From IMG/VR virus record IMGVR_UViG_2541047698_000015: a stretch of 42,876 nt of DNA; one strand, 5' to 3'. This stretch comes from a virus (Duplodnaviria; Heunggongvirae; Uroviricota; Caudoviricetes). This document shows, one piece after another, positions 1-41,985 of this stretch. A program made the translations under genes and the position numbers. Positions within the stretch are counted from its first letter, which is position 1, and every line of letters starts with the position of its first letter. A model generated the notes under the pieces. The model did no database searches and was not told the DNA's origin. It saw only the letters and a list, made by a program, of their open reading frames with translations.

Positions 1-1941
1 CTTCACCACCCGCGGCGTGTCCCATTTAGCCTGCGCCAGATACTGGCCGTCAGCTGCGCTCACCTCCACCGTCAGGTGCTGCACTGCCGGTGGGATAACG
101 CTGTTCAGGGTGCCTGACTGCGGCTCAAAGCGGGCCCCGTTATCCACGATGGCTTCTTTTTCAGGTACGTGCTGCACCGCCGTGATGGCAAAGGTGCCGT
201 CCGTGTTTTCCCGGATGGAGACACAGCGGAACAGGCGACGACGCAGTGACGGCAGGGAGAGTCCCCACACACCGTATGTCTCCACACCATCAGGCAGGGT
301 GCTGACCTGTATCCGGTCAGGCGCGGGGTGTGCGGTGATGGCCACGCTCGCCGGCTTACCGCTGCCGTTAATCAGATTAACAGTGGCCGTGCCGGTCTCC
401 GGCAGTGTCACCTCCCGGTCCAGCGTCAGGGTACGGCTGGCGGCATCGATGGACAGGACACGTCCGCCGGTCAGGGTCCCGGCATAGTCGTTATCACAGA
501 TTTCAATGATGTCACCGGGTGTGTGACGCAGCCCCTGTGACCCGAGCGTGAAATCCACCGTCTGCGTTTCCAGCAGTTCGGTCTTTATCACCCACAGCCC
601 GGCACGGTGGGCCTGACCGCGGCTGGTACAGCCGAACGCGTCCATCTTCAGCAGGTTGCGTCCGTAGCGCAGTATGGCTTCCGGGTCTTCCACCAGTTCC
701 GTGGAGGTCTGCCAGCCGTTCTGCGGGTCGGTGTAATTCACCTCCACCGCCGTGTGCCGGTCCTTCAGGGCACTGAAGCTGTAGCGGAAACCCACGCCGT
801 TATCATCCACCACCACATCGCTGCTGGTGTACGGCCACACCACATCCGACGGGCGGTCCTGAACGAACGTCAGCGTCTGACCGTTCCATACCGGCATACA
901 GCGCATCGCAGAGCAGAAATCACTGAGAACGTCCCACGCCTTACGCTGTTGTGCCAGGTACGCATTAAAGGTCATCCGCGGCTCGGTCCCCCCGAAACCA
1001 TCCGGGACCGTCTGGTCGCAGTACTGCCCGATGGCATACAGCGCCCACTTGTCCACATCCGCCGCCCCCAGACGTTTTCCCATGCCGTAGCGCGGGTGAG
1101 TCAGCATGTCCCACAGACACCAGGCCGGGTTGTTGCTGTATGCCGGTTTCAGGCTGCCGTCCCAGATACCACTGTACGTGCGTTTTTCCGGGTCATAGTT
1201 TGACGGCACCTGGATGATGCGACCGCGGATATGGTAGTTCACCGTCATCTGCTGGCCGCCGAACTGCTCCGCATCCACCTGCAGCCCCACAATGGCCGTG
1301 TTCGGGTAGCACTGTTTCACATCGATGATTTCGGTGTATGACGACCACAGCGTCTTATTCTGCAGCTGGTCCGTGGTGCTGTCCGCCGTCTCCCTGACCA
1401 TCCGGATGTTAAAGGGCCGGGGAGGCAGATTATCCAGAATCACCGAGGCCAGGAACTGCGAGGTGGTCTTGCCGTTAATGGTGACATCCTTTTCCGTCAC
1501 CCAGCGGCCATTACGCTGTAACTGAATCAGAATCCGGACAGAGGAAGGATTACGGTCGCCCTTTGACGTGGTCTGCACCAGTGACTGCACCCCGAAGGTA
1601 ACCCGCAGGCGGTCAATGTTCGCGGACGTAATGGTGCGCGTCACCGGTTTTGCCTTCGTCACTTCCACGCCCAGTCCGGTTTCAGCTCCGGAGGACTCAA
1701 AGCCTTCCGGTGGTGTCTGCTCCTGCTCCCCGGCACGCCAGACCGCAGTCACACCGTGTATCACGGGATTACCGTCCGTGTCCGTCAGCGGGGTTTTGTT
1801 CACCAGAATACTCTGCAGTCCCTTCACCGGACCTTCTATCGGTCCCTCACCAATCGCATCAATCACACTCATCATCTGCGTGGATTTGAGATTATCCTTC
1901 GCCTCACGAGGCGTGTGTGCCTTACCGCCACCTTTTCCCAT
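1..1941 (-). CDS. J: tail tip / host-specificity protein J, N-terminal ~647 codons (3' end runs off the window)
   Basis: Reverse complement from ~1941 reads MGKGGGKAHTPREAKDNLKSTQ..., matching the lambda gpJ N-terminus; AGGGGAAGG SD upstream; track shows no stop-bounded minus ORF here, consistent with a frame open to the edge. Confidence 0.85.
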   Translation of the reverse strand, partial: MGKGGGKAHTPREAKDNLKSTQMMSVIDAIGEGPIEGPVKGLQSILVNKTPLTDTDGNPVIHGVTAVWRAGEQEQTPPEGFESSGAETGLGVEVTKAKPVTRTITSANIDRLRVTFGVQSLVQTTSKGDRNPSSVRILIQLQRNGRWVTEKDVTINGKTTSQFLASVILDNLPPRPFNIRMVRETADSTTDQLQNKTLWSSYTEIIDVKQCYPNTAIVGLQVDAEQFGGQQMTVNYHIRGRIIQVPSNYDPEKRTYSGIWDGSLKPAYSNNPAWCLWDMLTHPRYGMGKRLGAADVDKWALYAIGQYCDQTVPDGFGGTEPRMTFNAYLAQQRKAWDVLSDFCSAMRCMPVWNGQTLTFVQDRPSDVVWPYTSSDVVVDDNGVGFRYSFSALKDRHTAVEVNYTDPQNGWQTSTELVEDPEAILRYGRNLLKMDAFGCTSRGQAHRAGLWVIKTELLETQTVDFTLGSQGLRHTPGDIIEICDNDYAGTLTGGRVLSIDAASRTLTLDREVTLPETGTATVNLINGSGKPASVAITAHPAPDRIQVSTLPDGVETYGVWGLSLPSLRRRLFRCVSIRENTDGTFAITAVQHVPEKEAIVDNGARFEPQSGTLNSVIPPAVQHLTVEVSAADGQYLAQAKWDTPRVVK

Positions 1942-2044
1942 ACAGCCTTCCCCTGAATAAATTAACCGCCACTTGCCATTCCGTACAGAAGTCGGATATC
2001 CTTCGCCCGAAAAGCATGAAACACATTTCTGCCATGCTAAAGAG

Positions 2045-2080
2045 AAACCCCGGTATCAGCAGATACCGGGGTTTTCTTTC
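2045..2080. terminator. GC-rich hairpin (ccccggtatc-agca-gataccgggg) with U-rich flank on both strands; possible bidirectional intrinsic terminator in the I-J spacer
   Basis: 10-bp perfect stem seen directly; followed by ttttctttc on plus and tttctcttt on minus. Confidence 0.4.
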
Positions 2081-2144
2081 ATGCCCACCGATAATCCTGT
2101 TGGTTAAAACCGGTAATGGCATAAAAATTCTGAATATCTTCACA

Positions 2145-2176
2145 TTTTCACAAACTGACTGTGGCGCGTATAATTT
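2145..2176 (+). promoter_or_regulatory. putative sigma70 promoter (-35 TTCACA, 16-nt spacer, -10 TATAAT) inside the I-J spacer
   Basis: Perfect TATAAT hexamer with 5/6 -35 match at canonical spacing; no CDS downstream before the terminator. Confidence 0.35.
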
Positions 2177-2180
2177 CTCT

Positions 2181-2278
2181 GCGTTAATTTTTTTGTCGTG
2201 ATATAAGAATAATTCCTTACACTTAATCTTCGTAACTCTCCCGCAGTTCCTGTCCGCGATCACTGCGGGATTTTTTTA
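2181..2278 (+). ncRNA. candidate small RNA (~95 nt) bounded by the promoter above and an intrinsic terminator; no ATG-initiated ORF
   Basis: Promoter-to-terminator unit with AU-rich body and no start codon; inferred only, not a recognised family. Confidence 0.3.
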
Positions 2279-2280
2279 TT
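2240..2280 (+). terminator. rho-independent terminator (cccgcag...ctgcggg followed by a T7 run)
   Basis: 7-bp GC stem plus tttttttatt on the plus strand, immediately downstream of I. Confidence 0.5.
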
Positions 2281-2284
2281 CTTT

Positions 2285-2965
2285 TTACCCCTGCCGCCCG
2301 ATAACCACGACCTTTCCGCCCCCGCCTTCATCACGGGTGCTGATGTCCTGGGATATACGGCGGGAGCCAACCAGCATTTCCCCGTAAGGCACCGGCATCG
2401 GGTTCCCCTGGGCAATCATGTTATCCAGCGAGGAAAAGTACGTGTTCTGTCTGCCGTTATCCGTTGCGCGGTAATCCGGTGTTTTTGCCTTCGGGGCCAG
2501 CATCTGGGCCACACCGCCCAGTATCATGCTGGCCCCCAGTGAAAACAGCATCGTGGTGGCAGAAAAACCGCCGGCACTCAGGGCTGTACCCCATAACACC
2601 ATCGAGGCACCGGCCGTGAAGAAAGAGCCCACGATGGCTGCCGCCCCCAGCACAATCTGCAGTCCACCCTTTCCGGCCCCGGCCAGTCGCGGCACAATGT
2701 GGATGACCGTTCCCTCACCCAGCTGTTCGTGAAGACGGGCGTACACCGCCTCCGGTGCCGTGTCATCACCGGCAATACGTATCTGGTACCAGCCTTCGTT
2801 CATCTGACGGCGAAAGCCCGGCATCTGCATCGACAGGGCGCGAATGGCTTCCGCTGCCGTGTTCACATACAGGCTGAGGCGGCGGCCAAATCGTTGTAAA
2901 TCCCCGTAAAGGCGGATGCGTGCCAGTGGCGGTGACGCCAGACAGAATGCGTTCGTCGTTGCCAT
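2285..2965 (-). CDS. I: tail tip assembly protein I
   Basis: 226-aa ORF (MATTNAFCLASPPLARIRLYGDLQRF...) closely matching lambda gpI in sequence and position. Confidence 0.9.
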   Translation of the reverse strand: MATTNAFCLASPPLARIRLYGDLQRFGRRLSLYVNTAAEAIRALSMQMPGFRRQMNEGWYQIRIAGDDTAPEAVYARLHEQLGEGTVIHIVPRLAGAGKGGLQIVLGAAAIVGSFFTAGASMVLWGTALSAGGFSATTMLFSLGASMILGGVAQMLAPKAKTPDYRATDNGRQNTYFSSLDNMIAQGNPMPVPYGEMLVGSRRISQDISTRDEGGGGKVVVIGRQG

Positions 2966-4315: not shown

Positions 4316-4644
4316 CAGTTCACCACCTGCTTAAACTCCGCGCTGAACTCAACGCGCAACATCCCGACCCGCGCAGACCACCCGGCACAGGTCACCTTTA
4401 TCTGCCGGTATGCATAGGGTGGCTTCCACAAAAATGCCTTCCAGCCACCGTGCTCTGCCAGGAACGCTTCCAGATGCCGGGCCTCCTCCCGGGTCACGGA
4501 AAGCGTCACCCTGTATGTTTTCAGGTCAGCATTCAGCCCTGCCGCCATACGCTGTGAGTACCCGTAACCAAAACGCACTTCACGCACCGATGGCTGCGAG
4601 TTCACCTCCATATCCGGCTTCACTTTCCAGCGAAAGGTTTTCAT
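4315..4644 (-). CDS. M: tail tip protein M
   Basis: 109 aa, MKTFRWKVKPDMEVNSQPSVREVRFGYGYSQR..., matches lambda gpM. Confidence 0.95.
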   Translation of the reverse strand: MKTFRWKVKPDMEVNSQPSVREVRFGYGYSQRMAAGLNADLKTYRVTLSVTREEARHLEAFLAEHGGWKAFLWKPPYAYRQIKVTCAGWSARVGMLRVEFSAEFKQVVN

Positions 4645-7214
4645 CCACCGCTCCCTGATAACATACCGCCATCACGCAACTGCAGCCGGAGTTCATCCTG
4701 TGCCCCCTTGCGGGCCATCTCATACACCGCTTTCATCAGCTGCGGCCCTGCCCGCCCGTTGGGGCCGTCGTTCTGAATCACCACGTGATTGTTCTGATTA
4801 AAATTAATGCCTTCCGCCCGCCGCATCTGCGCCGGACTTCCGGCACCGCCGACATAACCACCTTCCGCATAGCCCCGCATCAGGCGGTACAGATTGCCGA
4901 CACCAATCCGGCTGGTCGCCTCCTTCGTGAAGACAAACTCCCCGCGATGAACAATCCCCGCAGGTTCATATTTGCCGCCGGTTCCCGTAAATCCTCCGGT
5001 CGCAAAATGGAAGTTCGCCGCCGCAGCCTGAATGGCTGTACCGCCTGACGCGGATGCGCCACCACCAACAGCCCCGCCAATGGCGCTGCCGATACTTCCG
5101 ACAATCCCCACCATTGCCTGCTTCAGAAAAATCTCTGTCAGCATGGAGAGCACGGAACGGGTGAAACCACGCCAGTTCTGCTCACTGCCGGTCAGCATCG
5201 CCGCCATATTCTGTGCAATACCGTCAAAGGTCTGCGTGGCCGCGTTTTTAACCTGCGAAAAACTGTCCGTCGCACTTTCCGCCCACTCGCCCCAGCCGGA
5301 CTTCATCCCGGCCATCCAGCTTCCACGAAGCTGCTCCTCCGCAGACCAGGTGTTCTTCAGTGCCGATGTGGCCTTCGCCAGCGCAGCCGGATTATCACCG
5401 TACACCTCACGAAGGCGCTGCTCTTCCGACTCCCGCTGCGCCTGACGGTCAGTGAGGCCGCGGGCTTTTGCGCTGATTGCCGCCTGCTTCGCGCTCTGCT
5501 GCTGTTCAAACCGCGCCGCCTGCTGTGCCAGCTCATTCAGCCGCTTCTGGTGTTCTATCTTGTCGCCCAGCTCAGCCAGCTGGCGTTTGTACTCCAGCGT
5601 TTCTTTCTCATGGGCCAGCAGGGATTTTTCCTGCTCAGATAACTGCCGTTTCGTGGCGGCCTCTTTCAGGACCACATACTGATTTTCCGCTTCCCATAAA
5701 TCCCGGCGCTGCTGGCTGATTTTCTCATTCACACCGCTGTGTTTTTCCAGCGTCCTGAGCTCGGTTTCAAGCGCCAGCATGGCTGCATGCGCCCGGTCTT
5801 CCTGGCGCTCACCGGCAGACACCTTCACACCTGACGGCTTTTTCAGCGTCGATTCATAATCCTTTTTTGCCGACGCCATCAGCGTGTTGTAATCCGCCTG
5901 CAGGATTTTTCCGTCTTTCAGGGCCTTATTCAGCTCTTTCTGACGGGCGGTATATTTATCCAGCGGCGTCTGCAGGCGCTCATACGCCTTCTGCGCCTCT
6001 CCGGTATACTTCAGCTGTGACGCCTCACGCTCAGCCCGGTCCCTTGCCGCCAGTTCACCGGCTTTTTCCATATCCGACTGCAGCGTGGCCGCTGCCAGAC
6101 CCAGACGGGCATTTTCCCGGTCATCCCATGCCCCCTGAAGGTTCGCACGAAAAGAGGAGGTCTTTCCCCGGCGCTGGCTCCGGCTCTGGTACCACTGCCA
6201 TTTTTTATCCGCCTCATCAAATGCCTTCTGCGCACTGGCGAGCATATCCGCTGAGGATTCCGGACGACCGATATCCAGAATGGCATCCCACATCGATTTG
6301 AATGCCTTCCCTGTTTTATCCGCCCAGGTCTCCAGTGTTCCCATGTTTTCTTTCAGGCGACGGGTCTGCTCATCAAAGCCTTTCGTGGCGATATCGTTCG
6401 CCGCCTGCAATGCCCCGGCCTCGTCTCCGGAACGCTGCAGCTGTGCAACATACGCAATCTGCTCTGCCGTCACGTTACGGAACTGGCGCGCCATCGCCAT
6501 CAGTCCCGACGTCGGGTCAGTGGTCAGCTTCCCGAAGGCTTCAGCGACTTTATCCACCTCCACACCGGATGCAGACGCAAAACGCGCGACACTCTGGTTG
6601 ATGGCATCAAACTGTTCACCACCACGCACACCGGCATTCACCATGGCTGCCAGTGACTCACTCGCCTGGTTAAACGTCAGCCCTGCTGCCTGCCCGGCTC
6701 TTGAGAGAGTCAGCATACGATCGGCAGTCAGTCCGGACTGATTACCGGAAAGAACCAGGGTTTTATTAAACGCTGAAAGCGTGGAATCTCCCTGGTACCA
6801 GGCGTACACCAGCGCACCTGTCGCCACCGCCAGCGAGGTGACCCCGACCATCGGCAGGGTGATCGCACCGGCAAGCCCCCTGAACATGGGGATCATCCCG
6901 CCGAAGGAGTCCTTCACCTGACCGCCCTGTTGCAGCAGGATCAGCCAGGGATTCTGACCACCGGCAAGCTGCGTGGCGATATCCGTAAACTGTGCGGGCA
7001 GGGTTCGCATGGCCGCTTTATACTGCCCGACGGAAATCCCTGCTTTTTGTGCAGCCAGCGCCTGGCGGCTCAGGCCCTGTTCAACAGCACTGGCGGTTTT
7101 TCTGGCGTCGGTATCCAGACCTGAAAAATGACGCCTTACCCGGCTCATCTGCTCATCGAAACGGACAGCATCCAGACTAAGGTCAATAACAAGATCACCA
7201 ACCGGCTGGGACAT
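4641..7214 (-). CDS. H: tail tape measure protein H
   Basis: 857 aa, coiled-coil rich with Gly-rich C-terminal region, between the G-T region and M as in lambda. Confidence 0.95.
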   Translation of the reverse strand: MSQPVGDLVIDLSLDAVRFDEQMSRVRRHFSGLDTDARKTASAVEQGLSRQALAAQKAGISVGQYKAAMRTLPAQFTDIATQLAGGQNPWLILLQQGGQVKDSFGGMIPMFRGLAGAITLPMVGVTSLAVATGALVYAWYQGDSTLSAFNKTLVLSGNQSGLTADRMLTLSRAGQAAGLTFNQASESLAAMVNAGVRGGEQFDAINQSVARFASASGVEVDKVAEAFGKLTTDPTSGLMAMARQFRNVTAEQIAYVAQLQRSGDEAGALQAANDIATKGFDEQTRRLKENMGTLETWADKTGKAFKSMWDAILDIGRPESSADMLASAQKAFDEADKKWQWYQSRSQRRGKTSSFRANLQGAWDDRENARLGLAAATLQSDMEKAGELAARDRAEREASQLKYTGEAQKAYERLQTPLDKYTARQKELNKALKDGKILQADYNTLMASAKKDYESTLKKPSGVKVSAGERQEDRAHAAMLALETELRTLEKHSGVNEKISQQRRDLWEAENQYVVLKEAATKRQLSEQEKSLLAHEKETLEYKRQLAELGDKIEHQKRLNELAQQAARFEQQQSAKQAAISAKARGLTDRQAQRESEEQRLREVYGDNPAALAKATSALKNTWSAEEQLRGSWMAGMKSGWGEWAESATDSFSQVKNAATQTFDGIAQNMAAMLTGSEQNWRGFTRSVLSMLTEIFLKQAMVGIVGSIGSAIGGAVGGGASASGGTAIQAAAANFHFATGGFTGTGGKYEPAGIVHRGEFVFTKEATSRIGVGNLYRLMRGYAEGGYVGGAGSPAQMRRAEGINFNQNNHVVIQNDGPNGRAGPQLMKAVYEMARKGAQDELRLQLRDGGMLSGSGG

Positions 7215-15363: not shown

Positions 15364-17275
15364 TCACTCCTCCGGACAGCTTCGCTGCCAGTTCTTTAAG
15401 GGTTGGCCGGGTCGTCTCTTCTTCCCGGGATTTTGCCAGTACAGCCAGATCAAGCTGCCAGCGTTGCACGGACACACGTAATGCCGCGTAGGCATACACC
15501 AGGCAGTCCAGCGCTTCGTTACGCCGCTTTTTGTTATCCCACAGCAGACGCATCTTTCCTTTTTCCCACTTCTCCACAAGCTCTTCCGCCACCAGTTGCT
15601 GCGCCTCTGTCTGCGAAAAAATCTCCGGATCATCAGGAAAACGGATGGCATACGACGTGGCTTCATCCGCAGGCGTGGGATCGGCTTTCATACGGGCATA
15701 GAGAATTTCTTTTGCGGTGTCCGTCCCCACTTCACACAGATAAACGCCCCGCTGATTGCGGGTTTTTGGCATGGTGATCACCGGCTTGCCATAAACAGAT
15801 GCACCTTTTACCGGCAGCACCCGGAAAACACCGTGTTTTTTTGACCTCTGATAGACAATTTCGCCATCGATCCCCCCGGTGTCCCAGCAGACACGGGAAA
15901 TGGTCATTTCGGTGCCATCTGCATGGCAGTATTTTTTGTTGATCGCCGCATCCACACGTAACAGCGTCTCTTCCTCATCAGGACGCCCCATAATGATGAT
16001 TTTATCCACCAGAAAAGCTTCCTCTCCCGGTGCCCATCCCCAGACATACATCTCAAAACGGTTTCGCTGCGAGTCAATGCCCGCCGTCAGATAAACCACC
16101 CGGGCAGGCACCGCCGCCGTGTAATGCACGACCTTATCCATCAGTACCTGGTGATCGAGTTTTTCGCCCACGGCCTCTTCCCAGGTCTCGCCCAGCGTGG
16201 TGTTCACAAAGGTTTTCAGGCCGTTGGGATCTTTCAGTGCATCCAGCCAGTCATAGACAATCTGTACCCAGGTGGTGAACGGACTGTACGCTGTCCAGAT
16301 ATGGAACGTGATGGAGCGCGGCGGCGGAATTTCATTATCCGCGGCGCTGAAAAACGTCAGACCGTCACGGGTCCACATCCCCGTGTTTTCACAGATCCAC
16401 CGCCCGTTGCTCTGGTCAAGCTCAGACTGATGGATCACGCAGCCATGATGTTCACAGAGGTAGAAAACGCTTTCGGGGCTGTCCTTCTCCCATTTAAGGC
16501 CAAAAGGCGTGGATTCATCGCCAAATTTCAGATACTGCTCCTCCCCACAGTGTGGGCAGGGCACATAAAAACGCATGAAATGCGCCGACTCGTTGGCCGC
16601 TTTTTCGATCTGGCAGGTGCCTTTGATTTTAGGCGTCGAGCCGCGAATGGATTTGGGCCATACAGAGCCCTCAATACGTTTATCCCCAAGCAGGGTTGGC
16701 GAACCCTCTTTTTCGACATCCGGTTCGAACGAGGAAAGTTCGTCATAGCAGACCACGTCCACGGATTTTTCACGGTAGTTTTTGGCGGCAGCGCCGCCCA
16801 GGCACCAGAAGCCCACACCCGATGAAAAGCGTTTCAGCGTGAGAGTATTGTCACGATGTTTACGCCCCAGCCATGGAGAAAGGTCTTTCAGACATGGCAC
16901 ATCCCGAATCGTCGCCTCCACGTGAGACTTCATAAAATCTTCAGCGGCAGAATCCGTGGGCTGAAAAAGCAGACTGTTTCGGGATTTATGCTCAATAAAA
17001 TACCCGACGACTCCCAGCAACATCTTTGTATAGCCAACACGGGCAGATTTAATCAGATTAACAGTCCGGATCTGATCATTCCCCATGCTGTTCATGATGG
17101 CGATCTGGAACGGCAGCGTTTTCCATTCTCCCTCACCATATGAAGATTCTTTAGGCAGATAATAATTTTGATCAGCCCATTCAACTGGCGTCACCGGCAA
17201 TGCCCTTATCAGGGGCTGTAATGCTGTTGTGACAGCACTCATCATATTATTCAGTTGTTGCTCTGATATATTCAT
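15347..17275 (-). CDS. A: terminase large subunit A
   Basis: Start moved to internal MNISEQQLNN; very strong match to lambda gpA throughout (e.g. KSARVGYTKMLLGVVGYFIEHK, CPHCGEEQYLKFGD). Confidence 0.95.
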   Translation of the reverse strand: MNISEQQLNNMMSAVTTALQPLIRALPVTPVEWADQNYYLPKESSYGEGEWKTLPFQIAIMNSMGNDQIRTVNLIKSARVGYTKMLLGVVGYFIEHKSRNSLLFQPTDSAAEDFMKSHVEATIRDVPCLKDLSPWLGRKHRDNTLTLKRFSSGVGFWCLGGAAAKNYREKSVDVVCYDELSSFEPDVEKEGSPTLLGDKRIEGSVWPKSIRGSTPKIKGTCQIEKAANESAHFMRFYVPCPHCGEEQYLKFGDESTPFGLKWEKDSPESVFYLCEHHGCVIHQSELDQSNGRWICENTGMWTRDGLTFFSAADNEIPPPRSITFHIWTAYSPFTTWVQIVYDWLDALKDPNGLKTFVNTTLGETWEEAVGEKLDHQVLMDKVVHYTAAVPARVVYLTAGIDSQRNRFEMYVWGWAPGEEAFLVDKIIIMGRPDEEETLLRVDAAINKKYCHADGTEMTISRVCWDTGGIDGEIVYQRSKKHGVFRVLPVKGASVYGKPVITMPKTRNQRGVYLCEVGTDTAKEILYARMKADPTPADEATSYAIRFPDDPEIFSQTEAQQLVAEELVEKWEKGKMRLLWDNKKRRNEALDCLVYAYAALRVSVQRWQLDLAVLAKSREEETTRPTLKELAAKLSGGVNGYSR

Positions 17276-25223: not shown

Positions 25224-25670
25224 GGAGTTTACTCACATCTGACAAAATCAATATAAACAGCCCCTCCGGAGAGGGGCTGGAGAGTGGCGCTATGTGCCAT
25301 TGCATGGTGCCGGGTGCCTCCCGGTGAATTCAGTACCAGCACCTGAATCCGCGATTATCCCATATACCTACTCGCTGATTGCCCCTCCGCACAGGGGGAT
25401 TCACCATGCCAGTTTCTTTTAACAAACTCCCCGCAAACCAGACAACAGTCAACCGCCTGAATTGTGAAGTATTTAAAAATTTCTCCCGCTAACTGATACC
25501 CGGCTAACAGTCTGGCGTTTTCTTTTTCAGCAACGGGAAAGCAACAACCACCACACCCGCCACCAGCACACCGTCAGCCAGCACTGACATTATCCGGCTG
25601 CTGCAATGCCACTCACAAAAACAGTAAGCAATCACTTTTTACCGTAACAAGTGATAATCCAGATATGTAT

Positions 25671-26137: not shown

Positions 26138-26211
26138 CGCGCTGTACTGGATTCGAACCAGTGACCGATTGCTTAGAAGGCAATTGCTCTGTCCGGCTGA
26201 GCTAACAACGC
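26138..26211 (-). tRNA. tRNA-Arg (anticodon UCU), argN/argO-like; CCA end not encoded
   Basis: Cloverleaf readable by hand: acceptor GCGUUGU/ACAGCGC, D-arm AGCTCAGCCGGACAGAGC, anticodon loop CUUCUAA, T-arm ACTGG-TTCGAAT-CCAGT. Confidence 0.8.
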
Positions 26212-26311: not shown

Positions 26312-26387
26312 TGGTGGCCCTTGCTGGATTTGAACCAGCGACCTGGCGATTATGAGTCGCTCGCTCTCACCACTGAGCTAAAGGGCC
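26312..26387 (-). tRNA. tRNA with CAU anticodon (Ile2-lysidine type, ileZ-like; Met not excluded)
   Basis: GGCCCTTTAGCTCAGTGGTGAGAGCGAGCGACTCATAATCGCCAGGTCGCTGGTTCAAATCCAGCAAGGGCCACCA on minus; anticodon loop CUCAUAA; CCA encoded. Confidence 0.8.
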
Positions 26388-29596: not shown

Positions 29597-29752
29597 TTAC
29601 TCCTCAGGTTCGTAAGCTGTGAAGACAGCGACCTCCGTCTGGCCGGTTCGGATTCGTACCTCGCAGAGGTCTTTCCTCGTTACCAGTGCCGTCACTATGA
29701 CGGTTAAACAGATGACGATCAGGGCGATTAACATCGCCTTTTGCTGCTTCAT
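29597..29752 (-). CDS. hok: Hok-family type I toxin (51 aa)
   Basis: Hand translation of minus strand gives MKQQKAMLIALIVICLTVIVTALVTRKDLCEVRIRTGQTEVAVFTAYEPEE, a canonical Hok; not in the ORF track because it is under 60 aa. Confidence 0.9.
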   Translation of the reverse strand: MKQQKAMLIALIVICLTVIVTALVTRKDLCEVRIRTGQTEVAVFTAYEPEE

Positions 29753-29990
29753 AGCCTGCTTCTCCTTGACCTTTCGGTCCGTAAGAGGCTAATCTCTATG
29801 TGTCGCATAGATATGGCCTCAGATTAATGTTAAGCGTCTTGCAGGACGCGTAATGTTAACTGGGGCTTTTCTCTATCTGCCTTTTGGTGTTCATGCCTGA
29901 GACAGATAGCCTCAAGCACCCGCAGTTATTCTACTTAACTAAGATTTCCCCGCAAACCGTTTTTGTCCGGCACAGTAAATATCCAACTAA
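29753..29990 (-). promoter_or_regulatory. hok leader region with short upstream leader ORF whose TGA overlaps the hok ATG (mok-like coupling); an antisense Sok-like RNA is expected here but not delimited
   Basis: Leader ORF MRHIEISLLRTERSRRSRL ends in cTATGAag; inverted repeats in the leader. Confidence 0.45.
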
Positions 29991-37379: not shown

Positions 37380-37438
37380 CCATGTGTAGTCTTTGGTGGC
37401 ATCAGTTCTACTCCGTGACTGCTCTGCCGCCCTTTTTA
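37380..37438 (+). ncRNA. dicF: DicF-like small RNA (ftsZ-targeting sRNA family) with terminator-like 3' end
   Basis: TCTTTGGTGGCATCAGTTCTACTCCGTGACTGCTCTGCCGCCCTTTTT matches the 3' two-thirds of E. coli DicF as I recall it; 5' seed region differs. Confidence 0.6.
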
Positions 37439-41895: not shown

Positions 41896-41985
41896 TGGCG
41901 GAGAGAGGGGGATTTGAACCCCCGGTGGAGTTGCCCCCACTCCGGTTTTCGAGACCGGTCCGTTCAGCCGCTCCGGCATCTCTCC
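41896..41985 (-). tRNA. serU: tRNA-Ser (anticodon CGA), serU-like; integration target
   Basis: Minus strand reads GGAGAGATGCCGGAGCGGCTGAACGGACCGGTCTCGAAAACCGGAGTGGGGGCAACTCCACCGGGGGTTCAAATCCCCCTCTCTCCGCCA (90 nt, long variable arm, CCA encoded). Confidence 0.9.

What the first reader, a model, noticed from the sequence alone, without database searches (positions are those of the whole stretch)
1942..2284. ~340-bp insertion between I and J with a promoter-terminator unit and no ORF: candidate sRNA
In lambda I and J are contiguous. Here the spacer contains a near-consensus sigma70 promoter (TTCACA-16-TATAAT) firing away from J, a ~95-nt AU-rich body without a start codon, and an intrinsic terminator, plus a second 10-bp GC hairpin usable on either strand. 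That architecture is typical of Hfq-type trans-acting sRNAs.
Basis: partly seen in the sequence, partly recalled or inferred. Interest (0 to 1): 0.55.

Follow-up and report, generated by a model that had tools for sequence, protein, structure and literature searches.

The report
Divergent PasB prophage small RNA gene
The gap between tail genes I and J holds a real small-RNA gene from the PasB/EcOnc22 family, which is already known to bind the RNA chaperone Hfq in pathogenic E. coli; this copy is a diverged, unannotated version that published surveys could not have detected.

Summary
A 343-bp spacer (1942-2284) separates I and J, which lie on the - strand. On the + strand it has an 11/12 sigma-70 promoter (2147-2174), a predicted 97-nt RNA with no ATG (2181-2277), and an intrinsic terminator with a U7 tail. 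A 10-bp GC hairpin lies at 2048-2071.

The unit is not new in kind. It lies at the same position and in the same orientation as PasB of EPEC E2348/69, which is an 83-nt, Hfq-dependent RNA with a northern blot and 37 RIL-seq partners. It also matches EcOnc22/23/24 of EHEC Sakai (Hfq-CRAC peaks; EcOnc22 is ~85 nt and destabilised in delta-hfq). A profile built only from canonical PasB alleles hits the window once, end to end (E = 1e-10).

The window's allele is only 73% identical to PasB. The differences are concentrated in the single-stranded body, where the seed is proposed to lie. It is invisible to the published search settings (blastn, word size 28). This body type is in 800 of 5,426 complete E. 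coli genomes, against 956 for the canonical type, and no RefSeq record annotates it.

Most likely it is an Hfq-dependent, trans-acting sRNA made in the lysogen, with a target set that differs from canonical PasB. No targets are known for any allele. The second hairpin corresponds to a hairpin in lambda's own I-J gap.

The parts
1942..2284 (.). I-J intergenic spacer, 343 bp. It is modular: a left-half slot (1942-2135) and a PasB module (about 2126-2277).
   Evidence: Boundaries. The left half comes in two forms that combine freely with the RNA body types. A sodC cassette can occupy the left slot.
2129..2144 (+). Conserved inverted half-sites TCTGA-N6-TCACA, just upstream of and overlapping the -35 region. 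CRP-like at 9 of 10 core positions. Possible operator; function untested.
   Evidence: Kept in 46 of 48 distinct upstream segments, with a variable N6. Kept even where the -35 hexamer is lost. Its centre is about -44.5 from the predicted start, not the canonical -41.5.
2147..2174 (+). Sigma-70 promoter: -35 TTCACA (2147-2152), 16-bp spacer, -10 TATAAT (2169-2174).
   Evidence: 11 of 12 consensus positions. The same promoter stands in front of E2348/69 PasB. The -10 varies only at its first base across alleles: T, A or G followed by ATAAT.
2181..2277 (+). Predicted primary transcript: a PasB-family sRNA of window type 'B', 97 nt. The position equivalent to the 5' end reported for E2348/69 PasB would be about 2196, giving ~82 nt.
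   Evidence: The start is inferred from the -10 position. A profile of canonical PasB alleles aligns here end to end, E = 1.1e-10, and this is its only hit in the window. The PasB northern probe matches 2250-2272 on the - strand at 20 of 23 positions, with 0 matches expected by chance. MFE is -19.4 kcal/mol, z = -2.1.
2188..2194 (+). 5' U-run (U7), conserved in all alleles.
   Evidence: Alignments.
2205..2213 (+). (A-R-N)3 motif AAGAAUAAU, a candidate contact for the distal face of Hfq.
   Evidence: All 41 alleles have a run of at least 3 A-R-N triplets at the same place, although the sequence there differs. In mononucleotide shuffles of this allele's body, 4.9% reach 3 triplets.
2214..2239 (+). 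C/U-rich single-stranded stretch UCCUUACACUUAAUCUUCGUAACUCU, the candidate seed. The shared cores are UCCUUA (anti-Shine-Dalgarno-like) and AAUCUUC. The rest differs from canonical PasB.
   Evidence: No conserved pairing in the consensus fold. The preprint places the PasB seed just upstream of the terminator. Allele differences are shown.
2240..2277 (+). Intrinsic terminator: 7-bp stem CCCGCAG/CTGCGGG, 16-nt loop, then A and U7. It ends 7 nt before the stop codon of I. On the tail strand it has no T-tail.
   Evidence: The stem is invariant and the loop varies in length across alleles.
2048..2071 (.). 10-bp GC hairpin with T-rich tails on both strands (+ strand: TTTTCTTT, 2072-2079; - strand: TTTCTCTTT). 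It corresponds in position to a tail-strand hairpin in lambda's own I-J gap and in the short-form spacers. Probably a feature of the junction, not of the sRNA.
   Evidence: Fold energies. Lambda hairpin AAACCGCC-TGCG-GGCGGTTTT. The short-form hairpin shows a C-G to T-A change in its stem (read from the sequences; not formally tested). One locus, L206, has a clean deletion of the hairpin.
1973..2080 (+). Unresolved second candidate unit: a weak promoter-like site, TTGCCA-18-TATCCT (1973-2002), followed by about 70 nt that fold as a 5' hairpin plus the 2048-2071 terminator.
   Evidence: The promoter matches only 9 of 12 positions. The fold is -31.9 kcal/mol, z = -6.9. The long left half is at least 99% identical in 1,442 of 1,451 records. 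There is no expression evidence and no Rfam match.
2285..2965 (-). Tail assembly gene I, flanking the spacer.
   Evidence: Annotated as such in homologous records.
1..1941 (-). 5' part of the tail-tip / host-specificity gene J, flanking the spacer. It runs off the window edge.
   Evidence: Annotated as such in homologous records.

Best explanation
The spacer carries a moron-type small-RNA gene of the PasB/EcOnc22 family.

A host-type sigma-70 promoter (2147-2174) fires in the lysogen, independently of phage late control and against the direction of the tail operon. It makes a terminator-ended RNA of about 97 nt (2181-2277), or possibly ~82 nt if the 5' end is trimmed as reported for PasB. The RNA has the build of an Hfq-dependent base-pairing sRNA: a 5' U-run, an (A-R-N)3 motif, about 26 nt of C/U-rich single strand, and a GC hairpin followed by U7. 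It most likely binds Hfq and pairs in trans with host and prophage mRNAs through the single-stranded stretch.

The window's allele ('type B') shares its promoter, first 6 nt, U-run, two short core motifs and terminator with canonical PasB ('type A'). The rest of the body differs, so its target set is expected to differ too.

Shown here: the anatomy, homology and synteny with PasB and EcOnc22-24, the lack of a coding frame, and the allele distribution. Taken from published work on homologues: transcription, size, Hfq dependence and the presence of many RNA partners. Inferred: expression and Hfq binding of this allele, the seed location, and different targets.
For: - Same locus and orientation as PasB. 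In E2348/69, PasB (1466343-1466261, - strand) lies between I (ends 1466255) and J (starts 1466496).
- The two spacers align with the promoter and terminator conserved.
- The PasB probe matches at 20 of 23 positions, with 0 matches expected by chance.
- A type-A-only profile hits 2181-2276 end to end, E = 1.1e-10, as its single hit in 42.9 kb. With the terminator removed it still gives its single hit at the same place, E = 0.037.
- PasB is abundant where the flanking tail genes are silent: baseMean 482 and 1082, against 4.8 for I and 15 for J. It falls by log2 6.8 and 2.4 in delta-hfq and has 37 RIL-seq interactions.
- EcOnc22/23/24 Hfq-CRAC peaks map, after coordinate calibration, inside identical 91-nt PasB-like RNAs in the I-J spacers of Sakai Sp15, Sp14 and Sp11. 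EcOnc22 gives a ~85-nt northern band and is destabilised in delta-hfq.
- All 41 distinct alleles keep the U-run, an A-R-N run, AAUCUU and the terminator. Only the terminator is predicted as structure.
- No ATG in the window's RNA, and no frame is conserved. Indels between alleles are 4, 5 and 7 nt.
- All 67 of 67 I-J spacers chosen through protein I alone carry the module.
- The type B body is in 800 of 5,426 genomes and the type A body in 956.
Against: - No transcript, Hfq-binding or target data exist for this allele. Everything functional is borrowed from homologues that are 68-73% identical.
- No function or validated target is known for any family member. No common target motif was reported for PasB.
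- The reported PasB 5' end lies 15 nt downstream of the start predicted from the promoter, so the 5' end is uncertain.
- There is no covariation support. The only conserved helix is invariant, and its 3' arm was fixed by my search pattern.
- Body-only homology is weak (E = 0.037).
- Some loci keep the body without its promoter, where sodC has replaced it (L006, L201, L203). The sequence can therefore persist without its own promoter.
Confidence: 0.75

Rival explanations
1. The main role is in cis. The RNA is perfectly complementary to the I-J intercistronic part of the late tail mRNA, and its promoter fires head-on against the late operon. It could therefore limit or process J (tail-tip) expression, by RNase III cleavage of the duplex or by transcriptional interference. 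It might do this to its own prophage, or to an incoming or co-resident phage that carries the same allele. This could coexist with a trans role.
For: - The gene lies antisense to the tail operon at every locus examined.
- The position is fixed between I and J.
- The alleles are diverse and mosaic, as expected if matching or escaping an antisense partner mattered.
- A hairpin always lies on the tail strand between the module and J, and could cap a processed J mRNA.
Against: - The overlap covers neither coding sequence nor the J ribosome-binding site. The module lies about 240 nt upstream of the J start here.
- In the lysogen the tail genes are essentially silent, so the antisense partner is absent.
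- PasB's Hfq dependence and its 37 partners elsewhere in the genome point to trans action.
- No chimeras with E2348C_1436 or E2348C_1437 appear in the stored part of the RIL-seq table, though that file is truncated.
- Lambda manages without the module.
Confidence: 0.15
2. It is a decaying moron skeleton. The promoter and terminator are left over from a cargo cassette, such as the sodC cassettes found at this junction. They persist by hitch-hiking with the tail genes, and the RNA has no selected function.
For: - sodC cassettes occupy the same spacer in the same orientation.
- The long left half also looks like a promoter-plus-terminator shell.
- No target or phenotype is known for any allele.
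Against: - The module is in about a third of complete E. coli genomes, with promoter, U-run, A-R-N run and terminator all retained across at least 41 alleles.
- Homologues are abundant, stabilised by Hfq and engaged with many RNAs.
- sodC cassettes bring their own terminator and sit beside the module rather than inside it.
Confidence: 0.07
3. The spacer encodes a small protein: either a short ORF inside the transcript, or one of the 94-aa (+ strand) and 113-aa (- strand) ORFs that span the spacer.
For: Mechanical ORFs exist at 1917-2201 (+) and 1922-2263 (-). One phage record annotates a hypothetical protein over the spacer (H12).
Against: - The window's transcript has no ATG, and its longest ORF is 2 codons.
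- ORF length in the other alleles ranges from 2 to 31 codons, with non-ATG starts.
- Indels between alleles are not multiples of three.
- The spanning ORFs cross the terminator hairpins and the promoter.
- They cannot be conserved, because the left half is swapped for unrelated sequence in other loci.
- RefSeq annotates nothing here.
Confidence: 0.01

Closest known systems
PasB (pathogenicity-associated sRNA B) of EPEC O127:H6 E2348/69; Pearl Mizrahi et al. 2021 (PMC8550237); surveyed by Zhu, Shabalina and Storz 2026 (bioRxiv 10.64898/2026.05.13.724894)
   Same: - Lies in the I-J spacer of a lambdoid prophage, antisense to the tail operon, with its 3' end next to the stop codon of I.
- Same promoter (TTCACA-16-TATAAT) and the same first 6 nt.
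- Same U-run, UCCUU and AUCUUC cores, 7-bp terminator stem and U7 tail.
- The last 25 nt are identical.
- The profile match is end to end.
   Different: - Only 76 of 104 aligned columns are identical.
- The A-rich segment, the stretch just before the terminator (the proposed seed) and the terminator loop all differ. The loop has 5 extra nt.
- It is not recovered with the published search settings, and the preprint describes PasB variants as differing by 'only a few nucleotide differences'.
- E2348/69 has the short 92-nt left half rather than the 194-nt one.
EcOnc22/EcOnc23/EcOnc24 of EHEC O157:H7 Sakai (Stx1 phage Sp15, Sp14, Sp11); Tree et al. 2014 (PMC4104026, table S2)
   Same: - Same junction and strand.
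- A PasB-like RNA with the same U-run, AAUCUUC core, CUCUCCCGCAG and terminator.
- Bound by Hfq in vivo. EcOnc22 gives a ~85-nt northern band and is destabilised in delta-hfq.
   Different: - A fourth body type: 70 of 100 aligned columns identical to the window's RNA.
- The promoter region has diverged: the -35 hexamer is lost and the -10 is AATAAT.
- The EPEC paper's table lists no EHEC homologue for PasB. The equivalence is my inference. It rests on synteny, sequence and a coordinate shift of about +137 nt between genome versions.
Prophage anti-sRNAs AgvB and AsxR (Tree et al. 2014; Rfam RF02702 and RF02703)
   Same: They are prophage-borne, Hfq-binding short RNAs made in the lysogen from moron-type units. 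Family members share conserved 3' parts and have variable target-recognition parts.
   Different: - Their locus differs: downstream of PR', near the lysis and stx genes.
- They are smaller, at 51-60 nt.
- There is no sequence or Rfam match here.
- PasB met the EPEC study's criterion that more than 67% of an sRNA's partners be CDS or 5'UTR regions, so it behaves as a regulator of mRNAs rather than as a sponge (table S6 legend).
Protein-coding morons at the same junction: prophage sodC cassettes (from my own knowledge, compare sodCI of Salmonella Gifsy-2)
   Same: They are a promoter-gene-terminator unit inserted between I and J in the antisense orientation, and are expressed from the prophage.
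   Different: Their cargo is a periplasmic Cu/Zn superoxide dismutase, not an RNA. They sit beside the PasB module or replace its promoter. They are not homologous to it.

Membership tests
PasB sRNA family | Encoded in the I-J intergenic spacer of a lambdoid prophage, antisense to the tail genes, with its 3' end next to the stop codon of I | tested here: met
   The window's RNA ends at 2277 and the stop codon of I is 2285-2287. E2348/69 PasB ends at 1466261 and I ends at 1466255.
PasB sRNA family | Sequence homology to E2348/69 PasB over the full length of the RNA | tested here: met
   nhmmer with a type-A-only profile: model positions 1-97 align to 2181-2276, E = 1.1e-10, single hit. 76 of 104 columns identical. 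Probe match 20 of 23. The body alone is weak, E = 0.037.
PasB sRNA family | Recoverable by the published operational definition (blastn, word size 28, query coverage above 75%) | tested here: not met
   Word size 28 gives no hit. Word size 11 finds only the 25-nt 3' end. The allele therefore lies outside the variant set of the 2026 survey, although it is homologous.
PasB sRNA family | Own sigma-70 promoter shared with PasB | tested here: met
   The -35, the 16-bp spacing and the -10 are the same as upstream of E2348/69 PasB.
PasB sRNA family | Conserved seed, proposed to lie just upstream of the terminator | tested here: inconclusive
   AAUCUUC is shared. The following 10-12 nt differ: GUAACUCU in the window against AUUUGUCUGU in PasB. 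The seed has not been mapped experimentally in any allele.
PasB sRNA family | Transcript of about 83 nt that accumulates in the lysogen and depends on Hfq | not testable with these tools
   Known only for E2348/69 PasB and for EcOnc22.
Hfq-dependent trans-acting sRNA (general class) | Rho-independent terminator hairpin followed by a U-tail of at least 6, with a single-stranded region upstream | tested here: met
   7-bp GC stem plus U7. The body is unpaired in the consensus fold.
Hfq-dependent trans-acting sRNA (general class) | A-R-N repeat for the distal face of Hfq (class II type) | tested here: inconclusive
   (A-R-N)3 lies at 2205-2213. A run of at least 3 triplets is present in all 41 alleles at the same place. 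However, a run of 3 arises in 4.9% of shuffles of a single sequence this A-rich.
Hfq-dependent trans-acting sRNA (general class) | Physical binding to Hfq and base-pairing with target mRNAs | not testable with these tools
   Shown for homologues only.
AgvB/AsxR anti-sRNAs | Match to Rfam RF02702 or RF02703, a size of 51-60 nt, and a location at the PR' moron site | tested here: not met
   No Rfam match in the spacer at the gathering threshold or at E up to 10. The locus and size differ.
Moron (promoter-cargo-terminator unit inserted between two phage genes) | Autonomous promoter and terminator flanking a cargo, inserted between genes that are adjacent in related phages | tested here: met
   Lambda has only 60 bp between I and J. 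Here a promoter-RNA-terminator unit is added. The cargo is non-coding.

The most novel reading that the evidence does not exclude
The I-J junction may be a swappable sRNA cassette. A fixed promoter and a fixed Hfq-binding terminator frame a body that recombines among at least four sequence types. Prophages could thereby re-target host genes. Alternatively, because the RNA is a perfect antisense to the late tail mRNA of any phage carrying the same allele, it could act as an allele-specific brake on the tail production of related incoming or co-resident phages. In that case allele diversity would reflect escape from such targeting.
Probability: 0.1. Interest if true: 0.65.

Novelty: new member of a known kind. 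Interest (0 to 1): 0.33.

Why it matters
The kind of element is already known, so this is not a discovery of a new system. Three points are useful.

1. The window's body type is as common as canonical PasB (800 against 956 of 5,426 complete genomes). It is present in reference and clinical strains such as ATCC 25922 and IAI39, and in O26, O111 and O145 STEC. It is not annotated in any RefSeq genome record examined, it is absent from Rfam, and it is out of reach of the published search settings. The family's reach is therefore roughly twice what was reported, and it extends well into non-EPEC/EHEC strains.

2. PasB (EPEC, 2021) and EcOnc22-24 (EHEC, 2014) appear to be one family. I did not find this link in the papers I read.

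3. The alleles differ mainly in the single-stranded body. Strains that 'have PasB' may therefore regulate different genes. This matters for anyone trying to assign the RNA a function.

Tried and rejected
- **Rfam:** no family matches the spacer at the gathering threshold or at E up to 10. The sub-threshold hits only reflect the 2048-2071 hairpin.
- **AgvB/AsxR identity:** rejected. Their locus is the PR' moron site.
- **EcOnc10/11/12:** they looked like a repeated prophage sRNA but lie at the lysis-terminase junction. They were useful only for calibrating coordinates.
- **Covariation:** RNAalifold on 30 distinct alleles predicts only the terminator stem. That stem is invariant, and its 3' arm was fixed by my search pattern, so there is no covariation evidence either way.
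- **A 5' hairpin pairing the U-run with the A-rich segment:** considered, but the consensus fold does not support it.
- **PasB seed from RIL-seq:** the target-motif table has entries for PasA, PasD1 and PasD2 but none for PasB in the part read. The full partner table is too large and is truncated in the held copy, so I did not extract the partners.
- **Preprint variant sequences (PasB-2 and others):** available only as images. I tested detectability by re-running the search settings instead.
- **Verbatim sequence search of the literature:** nothing found for either body type or for the probe.
- **GTDB species-representative scan:** only E. albertii and one probable contaminant matched. The pattern was strict and each species has one genome there, so this says little about host range.
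- **Small-protein reading:** rejected.
- **Genome-wide target prediction for the window allele:** not possible, because no host genome is available to the tools.
- **Left-half candidate RNA (2009-2080):** left unresolved.
Full report
**1. The observation**

The tail genes lie on the - strand: H at 4641-7214, M, L, K, then I at 2285-2965. J begins at 1941 and reads MGKGGGKAHTPREAKDNLKSTQ.... I ends with ...VVVIGRQG and a stop codon at 2285-2287. The spacer is therefore 1942-2284, 343 bp.

On the + strand the consensus scan finds TTCACA-16-TATAAT at 2147-2174, matching 11 of 12 positions. It also finds a terminator-like hairpin at 2253-2269 followed by a T-run. In the 1.3-kb region scanned there are 3 promoter-like sites against 0.9 +/- 1.2 in shuffles, and 4 terminator-like sites against 1.4 +/- 1.3. 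Read by eye, the full terminator stem is CCCGCAG (2240-2246) paired with CTGCGGG (2263-2269), then A and T7 (2271-2277).

A start 7 nt after the -10 gives an RNA of 2181-2277, 97 nt. It has no ATG and its longest ORF is 2 codons. Its first 58 nt are 71% A+U.

The second hairpin is CCCCGGTATC-AGCA-GATACCGGGG at 2048-2071. It is very stable on both strands, at -25.3 and -27.1 kcal/mol (z = -7 and -9), with T-rich tails on both sides.

Lambda itself has a 60-bp I-J gap, so its two genes are not strictly contiguous.

**2. What it is**

Rfam has nothing for the spacer at the gathering threshold or at E up to 10. No RefSeq E. coli record annotates anything under it, although it occurs in 1,662 of 5,426 complete genomes.

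The literature gave the identification. Pearl Mizrahi et al. 2021 (PMC8550237, table S6) describe PasB in EPEC E2348/69. It is an 83-nt RNA at NC_011601 1466343-1466261 on the - strand, in prophage PP6, between E2348C_1436 and E2348C_1437. In that genome the two genes are I (ending at 1466255) and J (starting at 1466496), both on the + strand. PasB therefore sits in the I-J spacer, antisense to the tail genes, and ends just beside the stop codon of I. The window has the same arrangement.

Three comparisons tie the window to PasB:
- The PasB northern probe matches 2250-2272 on the - strand at 20 of 23 positions, with 0 matches expected by chance.
- Aligning the two spacers shows the same promoter and the same terminator, but a diverged RNA body. 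From predicted start to U-tail, 76 of 104 columns are identical.
- A profile built only from 14 canonical ('type A') alleles hits the window once, end to end at 2181-2276, E = 1.1e-10. With the terminator removed it still gives its single hit there, but weakly, at E = 0.037.

**3. A second, older identification**

Table S2 of Tree et al. 2014 (PMC4104026) lists EcOnc22, EcOnc23 and EcOnc24 as homologous Hfq-CRAC peaks in Sakai prophages Sp15 (Stx1), Sp14 and Sp11. EcOnc22 gave a ~85-nt northern band and was destabilised in delta-hfq. In the current Sakai record, all three coordinates fall in I-J spacers on the strand antisense to the tail genes.

The published coordinates refer to NC_002695.1, so I calibrated the shift to NC_002695.2 in two ways:
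- AgvB1 was published at 1941783-1941835, and Rfam places it at 1941920-1941981. This gives a shift of +137 to +146.
- EcOnc10 and EcOnc11 are mirror-image repeats inside identical 362-bp gaps. Requiring the same relative position gives 74 + S = 349 - S, so S = 137.5 at 2.23 Mb.

With that shift, each peak begins 13-24 nt into an identical predicted 91-nt PasB-like RNA and ends 6-17 nt before its 3' end. With no shift, the peaks would fall on the left-half hairpin, which has no promoter or terminator on that strand.

I therefore take EcOnc22-24 to be EHEC members of the same family. The EPEC paper's table lists EHEC homologues for PasA and PasD but none for PasB. A 2021 review lists EcOnc22-24 with unknown targets.

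**4. Allele diversity**

I scanned with a pattern anchored on the promoter core and the 3' arm of the terminator. It returned at least 120 viral-contig stretches. With the other loci this made 131 copies and 41 distinct sequences, and the window's exact allele was the commonest, with 23 copies.

The alignment shows several conserved features: the start (GCGUUA), a U-run, an A-rich segment, UCCUU-like and AAUCUU cores, the 7-bp terminator stem and the U-tail. Between these, the sequence falls into alternative blocks that occur in mosaic combinations, and the terminator loop varies from 4 to 16 nt. I distinguish these body types:
- Type A: canonical PasB.
- Type B: the window.
- Type C: locus L007.
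- Type D: EcOnc22-24.

The window's RNA is 73%, 68% and 70% identical to types A, C and D respectively.

The published survey (bioRxiv 10.64898/2026.05.13.724894) used blastn with word size 28 and query coverage above 75%. It reports that PasB variants show 'only a few nucleotide differences'. Re-running those settings, the 83-nt PasB query does not hit the window at all. At word size 11 it finds only the 25-nt 3' end.

The type B body is nevertheless in 800 of 5,426 complete E. coli genomes, including ATCC 25922, IAI39, and O26, O111 and O145 STEC. Type A is in 956.

For a sample chosen without reference to the spacer, I took the 80 viral loci whose I protein is at least 96% identical to the window's. 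All 67 spacers that could be resolved carry a PasB-family module: 56 of type B, 9 of type A and 2 like type D.

Caveats: the pattern-based sample fixes the promoter core and the terminator arm, so their invariance there carries no information. The I-based sample covers only close relatives.

**5. How it most likely works**

Published results for homologues:
- In the E2348/69 lysogen, PasB is abundant (baseMean 482 and 1082) while I and J are nearly silent (4.8 and 15).
- Its level falls by log2 6.8 and 2.4 in delta-hfq.
- It has 37 RIL-seq interactions and met the study's criterion that most partners be CDS or 5'UTR regions.
- EcOnc22 is bound by Hfq in vivo and destabilised without it.

Shown here for the window's allele: it has the same promoter, an unstructured C/U-rich body, an (A-R-N)3 motif at 2205-2213, and a GC hairpin followed by U7. 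A run of at least 3 A-R-N triplets is present at that place in all 41 alleles, even though the sequence there differs.

Inferred: the RNA is made from its own promoter in the lysogen. It binds Hfq through the U-tail and possibly the A-R-N run. It pairs with mRNAs through 2214-2239. The preprint proposes the seed just upstream of the terminator. In that stretch the window shares AAUCUUC with PasB but differs afterwards (GUAACUCU against AUUUGUCUGU). The shared UCCUUA is complementary to a Shine-Dalgarno-like UAAGGA. I therefore expect an overlapping but distinct target set. No target has been validated for any allele, and no target motif was reported for PasB.

The 5' end is uncertain. The reported PasB start lies 15 nt downstream of the start predicted from the only plausible promoter. 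This may reflect processing, or the limits of estimating an end from read coverage.

**6. Rival explanations**

- *Cis-antisense role.* The RNA is a perfect antisense to the I-J intercistronic part of the late mRNA, and its promoter faces the late operon. A cis role (RNase III processing or transcriptional interference) is possible and could coexist with trans action. However, the overlap avoids coding sequence and the J ribosome-binding site, the partner is absent in the lysogen, and lambda lacks the module.
- *Functionless relic of a cargo cassette.* This is hard to reconcile with the retention of all the functional parts across 41 alleles and about a third of E. coli genomes, or with the abundance and Hfq engagement of the homologues.
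- *Small protein.* Excluded for practical purposes.

**7. The rest of the spacer**

The left half comes in two forms. One is 194 nt, as in the window, and is at least 99% identical in 1,442 of 1,451 records. The other is 91-92 nt, as in E2348/69. Both forms combine with both the A and B bodies.

Each form carries a hairpin that looks like a terminator on the tail strand. The short-form hairpin differs between copies by what looks like a compensatory C-G to T-A change in its stem; I read this from the sequences and did not test it formally. Lambda's own 60-bp gap has such a hairpin 22 nt upstream of J.

One locus has lost it by a clean deletion (L206). Its function is unknown. It might stop RNA polymerase that lacks Q modification before J, or cap a processed J mRNA.

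The window's long form also contains a weak promoter-like site (9 of 12 positions) followed by about 70 nt that fold like an sRNA. I found no evidence that it is expressed.

The same slot can hold a sodC cassette. In some loci the cassette sits beside an intact PasB gene, and in others it replaces the PasB promoter.

**8. Verdict**

The element is a new, diverged member of a known and experimentally validated prophage sRNA family, not a new kind of system.

Interest is modest. The useful results are:
- a common allele class is unannotated and out of reach of the published search;
- PasB and EcOnc22-24 appear to be one family;
- the alleles differ in the region most likely to choose targets.

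Noticed in passing
window 25249-25438 (-), 29750-29921 (-), 37381-37432 (+), 26138-26211, 26315-26387 and 41899-41985 (-): The same prophage window also carries STnc100 (a relative of PasD), a hok/sok-type Sok RNA, DicF and three tRNA genes. Together with the PasB-type gene, this makes it a prophage unusually rich in regulatory RNAs.
   Followed up: no
window 2129-2144 (+): Inverted half-sites TCTGA-N6-TCACA, CRP-like at 9 of 10 positions, lie just upstream of and overlapping the -35 region. They are kept in 46 of 48 distinct upstream segments with a variable N6, even in alleles that have lost the -35 hexamer. The centre is about -44.5, not the canonical -41.5. PasB is higher in LB than in DMEM in the EPEC study, which fits catabolite control but does not test it.
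   Followed up: partly
L006:889-1416; L194, L195, L201 and L203 I-J spacers: A sodC (Cu/Zn superoxide dismutase) cassette with its own terminator can occupy the left-half slot of the I-J spacer, in the same orientation as PasB. In the 903-nt spacers the PasB promoter is intact. In the 851-nt spacers the cassette replaces it, leaving a promoterless type B body and terminator.
   Followed up: partly
window 1973-2080 (+): The long left half contains a weak promoter-like site (TTGCCA-18-TATCCT) followed by about 70 nt that fold as a 5' hairpin, an A-rich linker (AAAGAGAAA) and the 2048-2071 terminator (-31.9 kcal/mol, z = -6.9). This stretch is at least 99% identical in 1,442 of 1,451 E. coli records, far more uniform than the adjacent PasB body. 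It could be a second small RNA or a cassette remnant. No expression data were found.
   Followed up: partly
L135:760-790 (lambda 15459-15489); L002:1930-1960; window 2048-2071: Lambda, the short-form spacers and the long-form spacers all have a GC hairpin with a T-rich tail on the tail-gene strand shortly upstream of J. The hairpin sequences are unrelated, and the short form shows what looks like a compensatory change in its stem. A terminator-like hairpin inside the late operon, just before J, seems to be a conserved but unexplained feature.
   Followed up: partly
L011 (NZ_JBHTEB010000006.1, 'Streptomyces flavalbus', 3.4-kb contig), 2133-2271: A complete PasB-type module sits in a short contig of a Streptomyces assembly. 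This is almost certainly contamination with E. coli or coliphage DNA.
   Followed up: no
L007:672-1190: An IS66-family tnpB and a truncated J fragment are inserted between J and the spacer in E. coli 1604D011, next to a third PasB body type with a GATAAT -10.
   Followed up: no
NC_002695.2 against NC_002695.1 (Sakai): Coordinates in Tree et al. 2014 table S2 are shifted by about +137 nt relative to the current Sakai record between 1.9 and 2.9 Mb. Anyone mapping EcOnc sRNAs onto the current record will misplace them unless this is corrected.
   Followed up: yes
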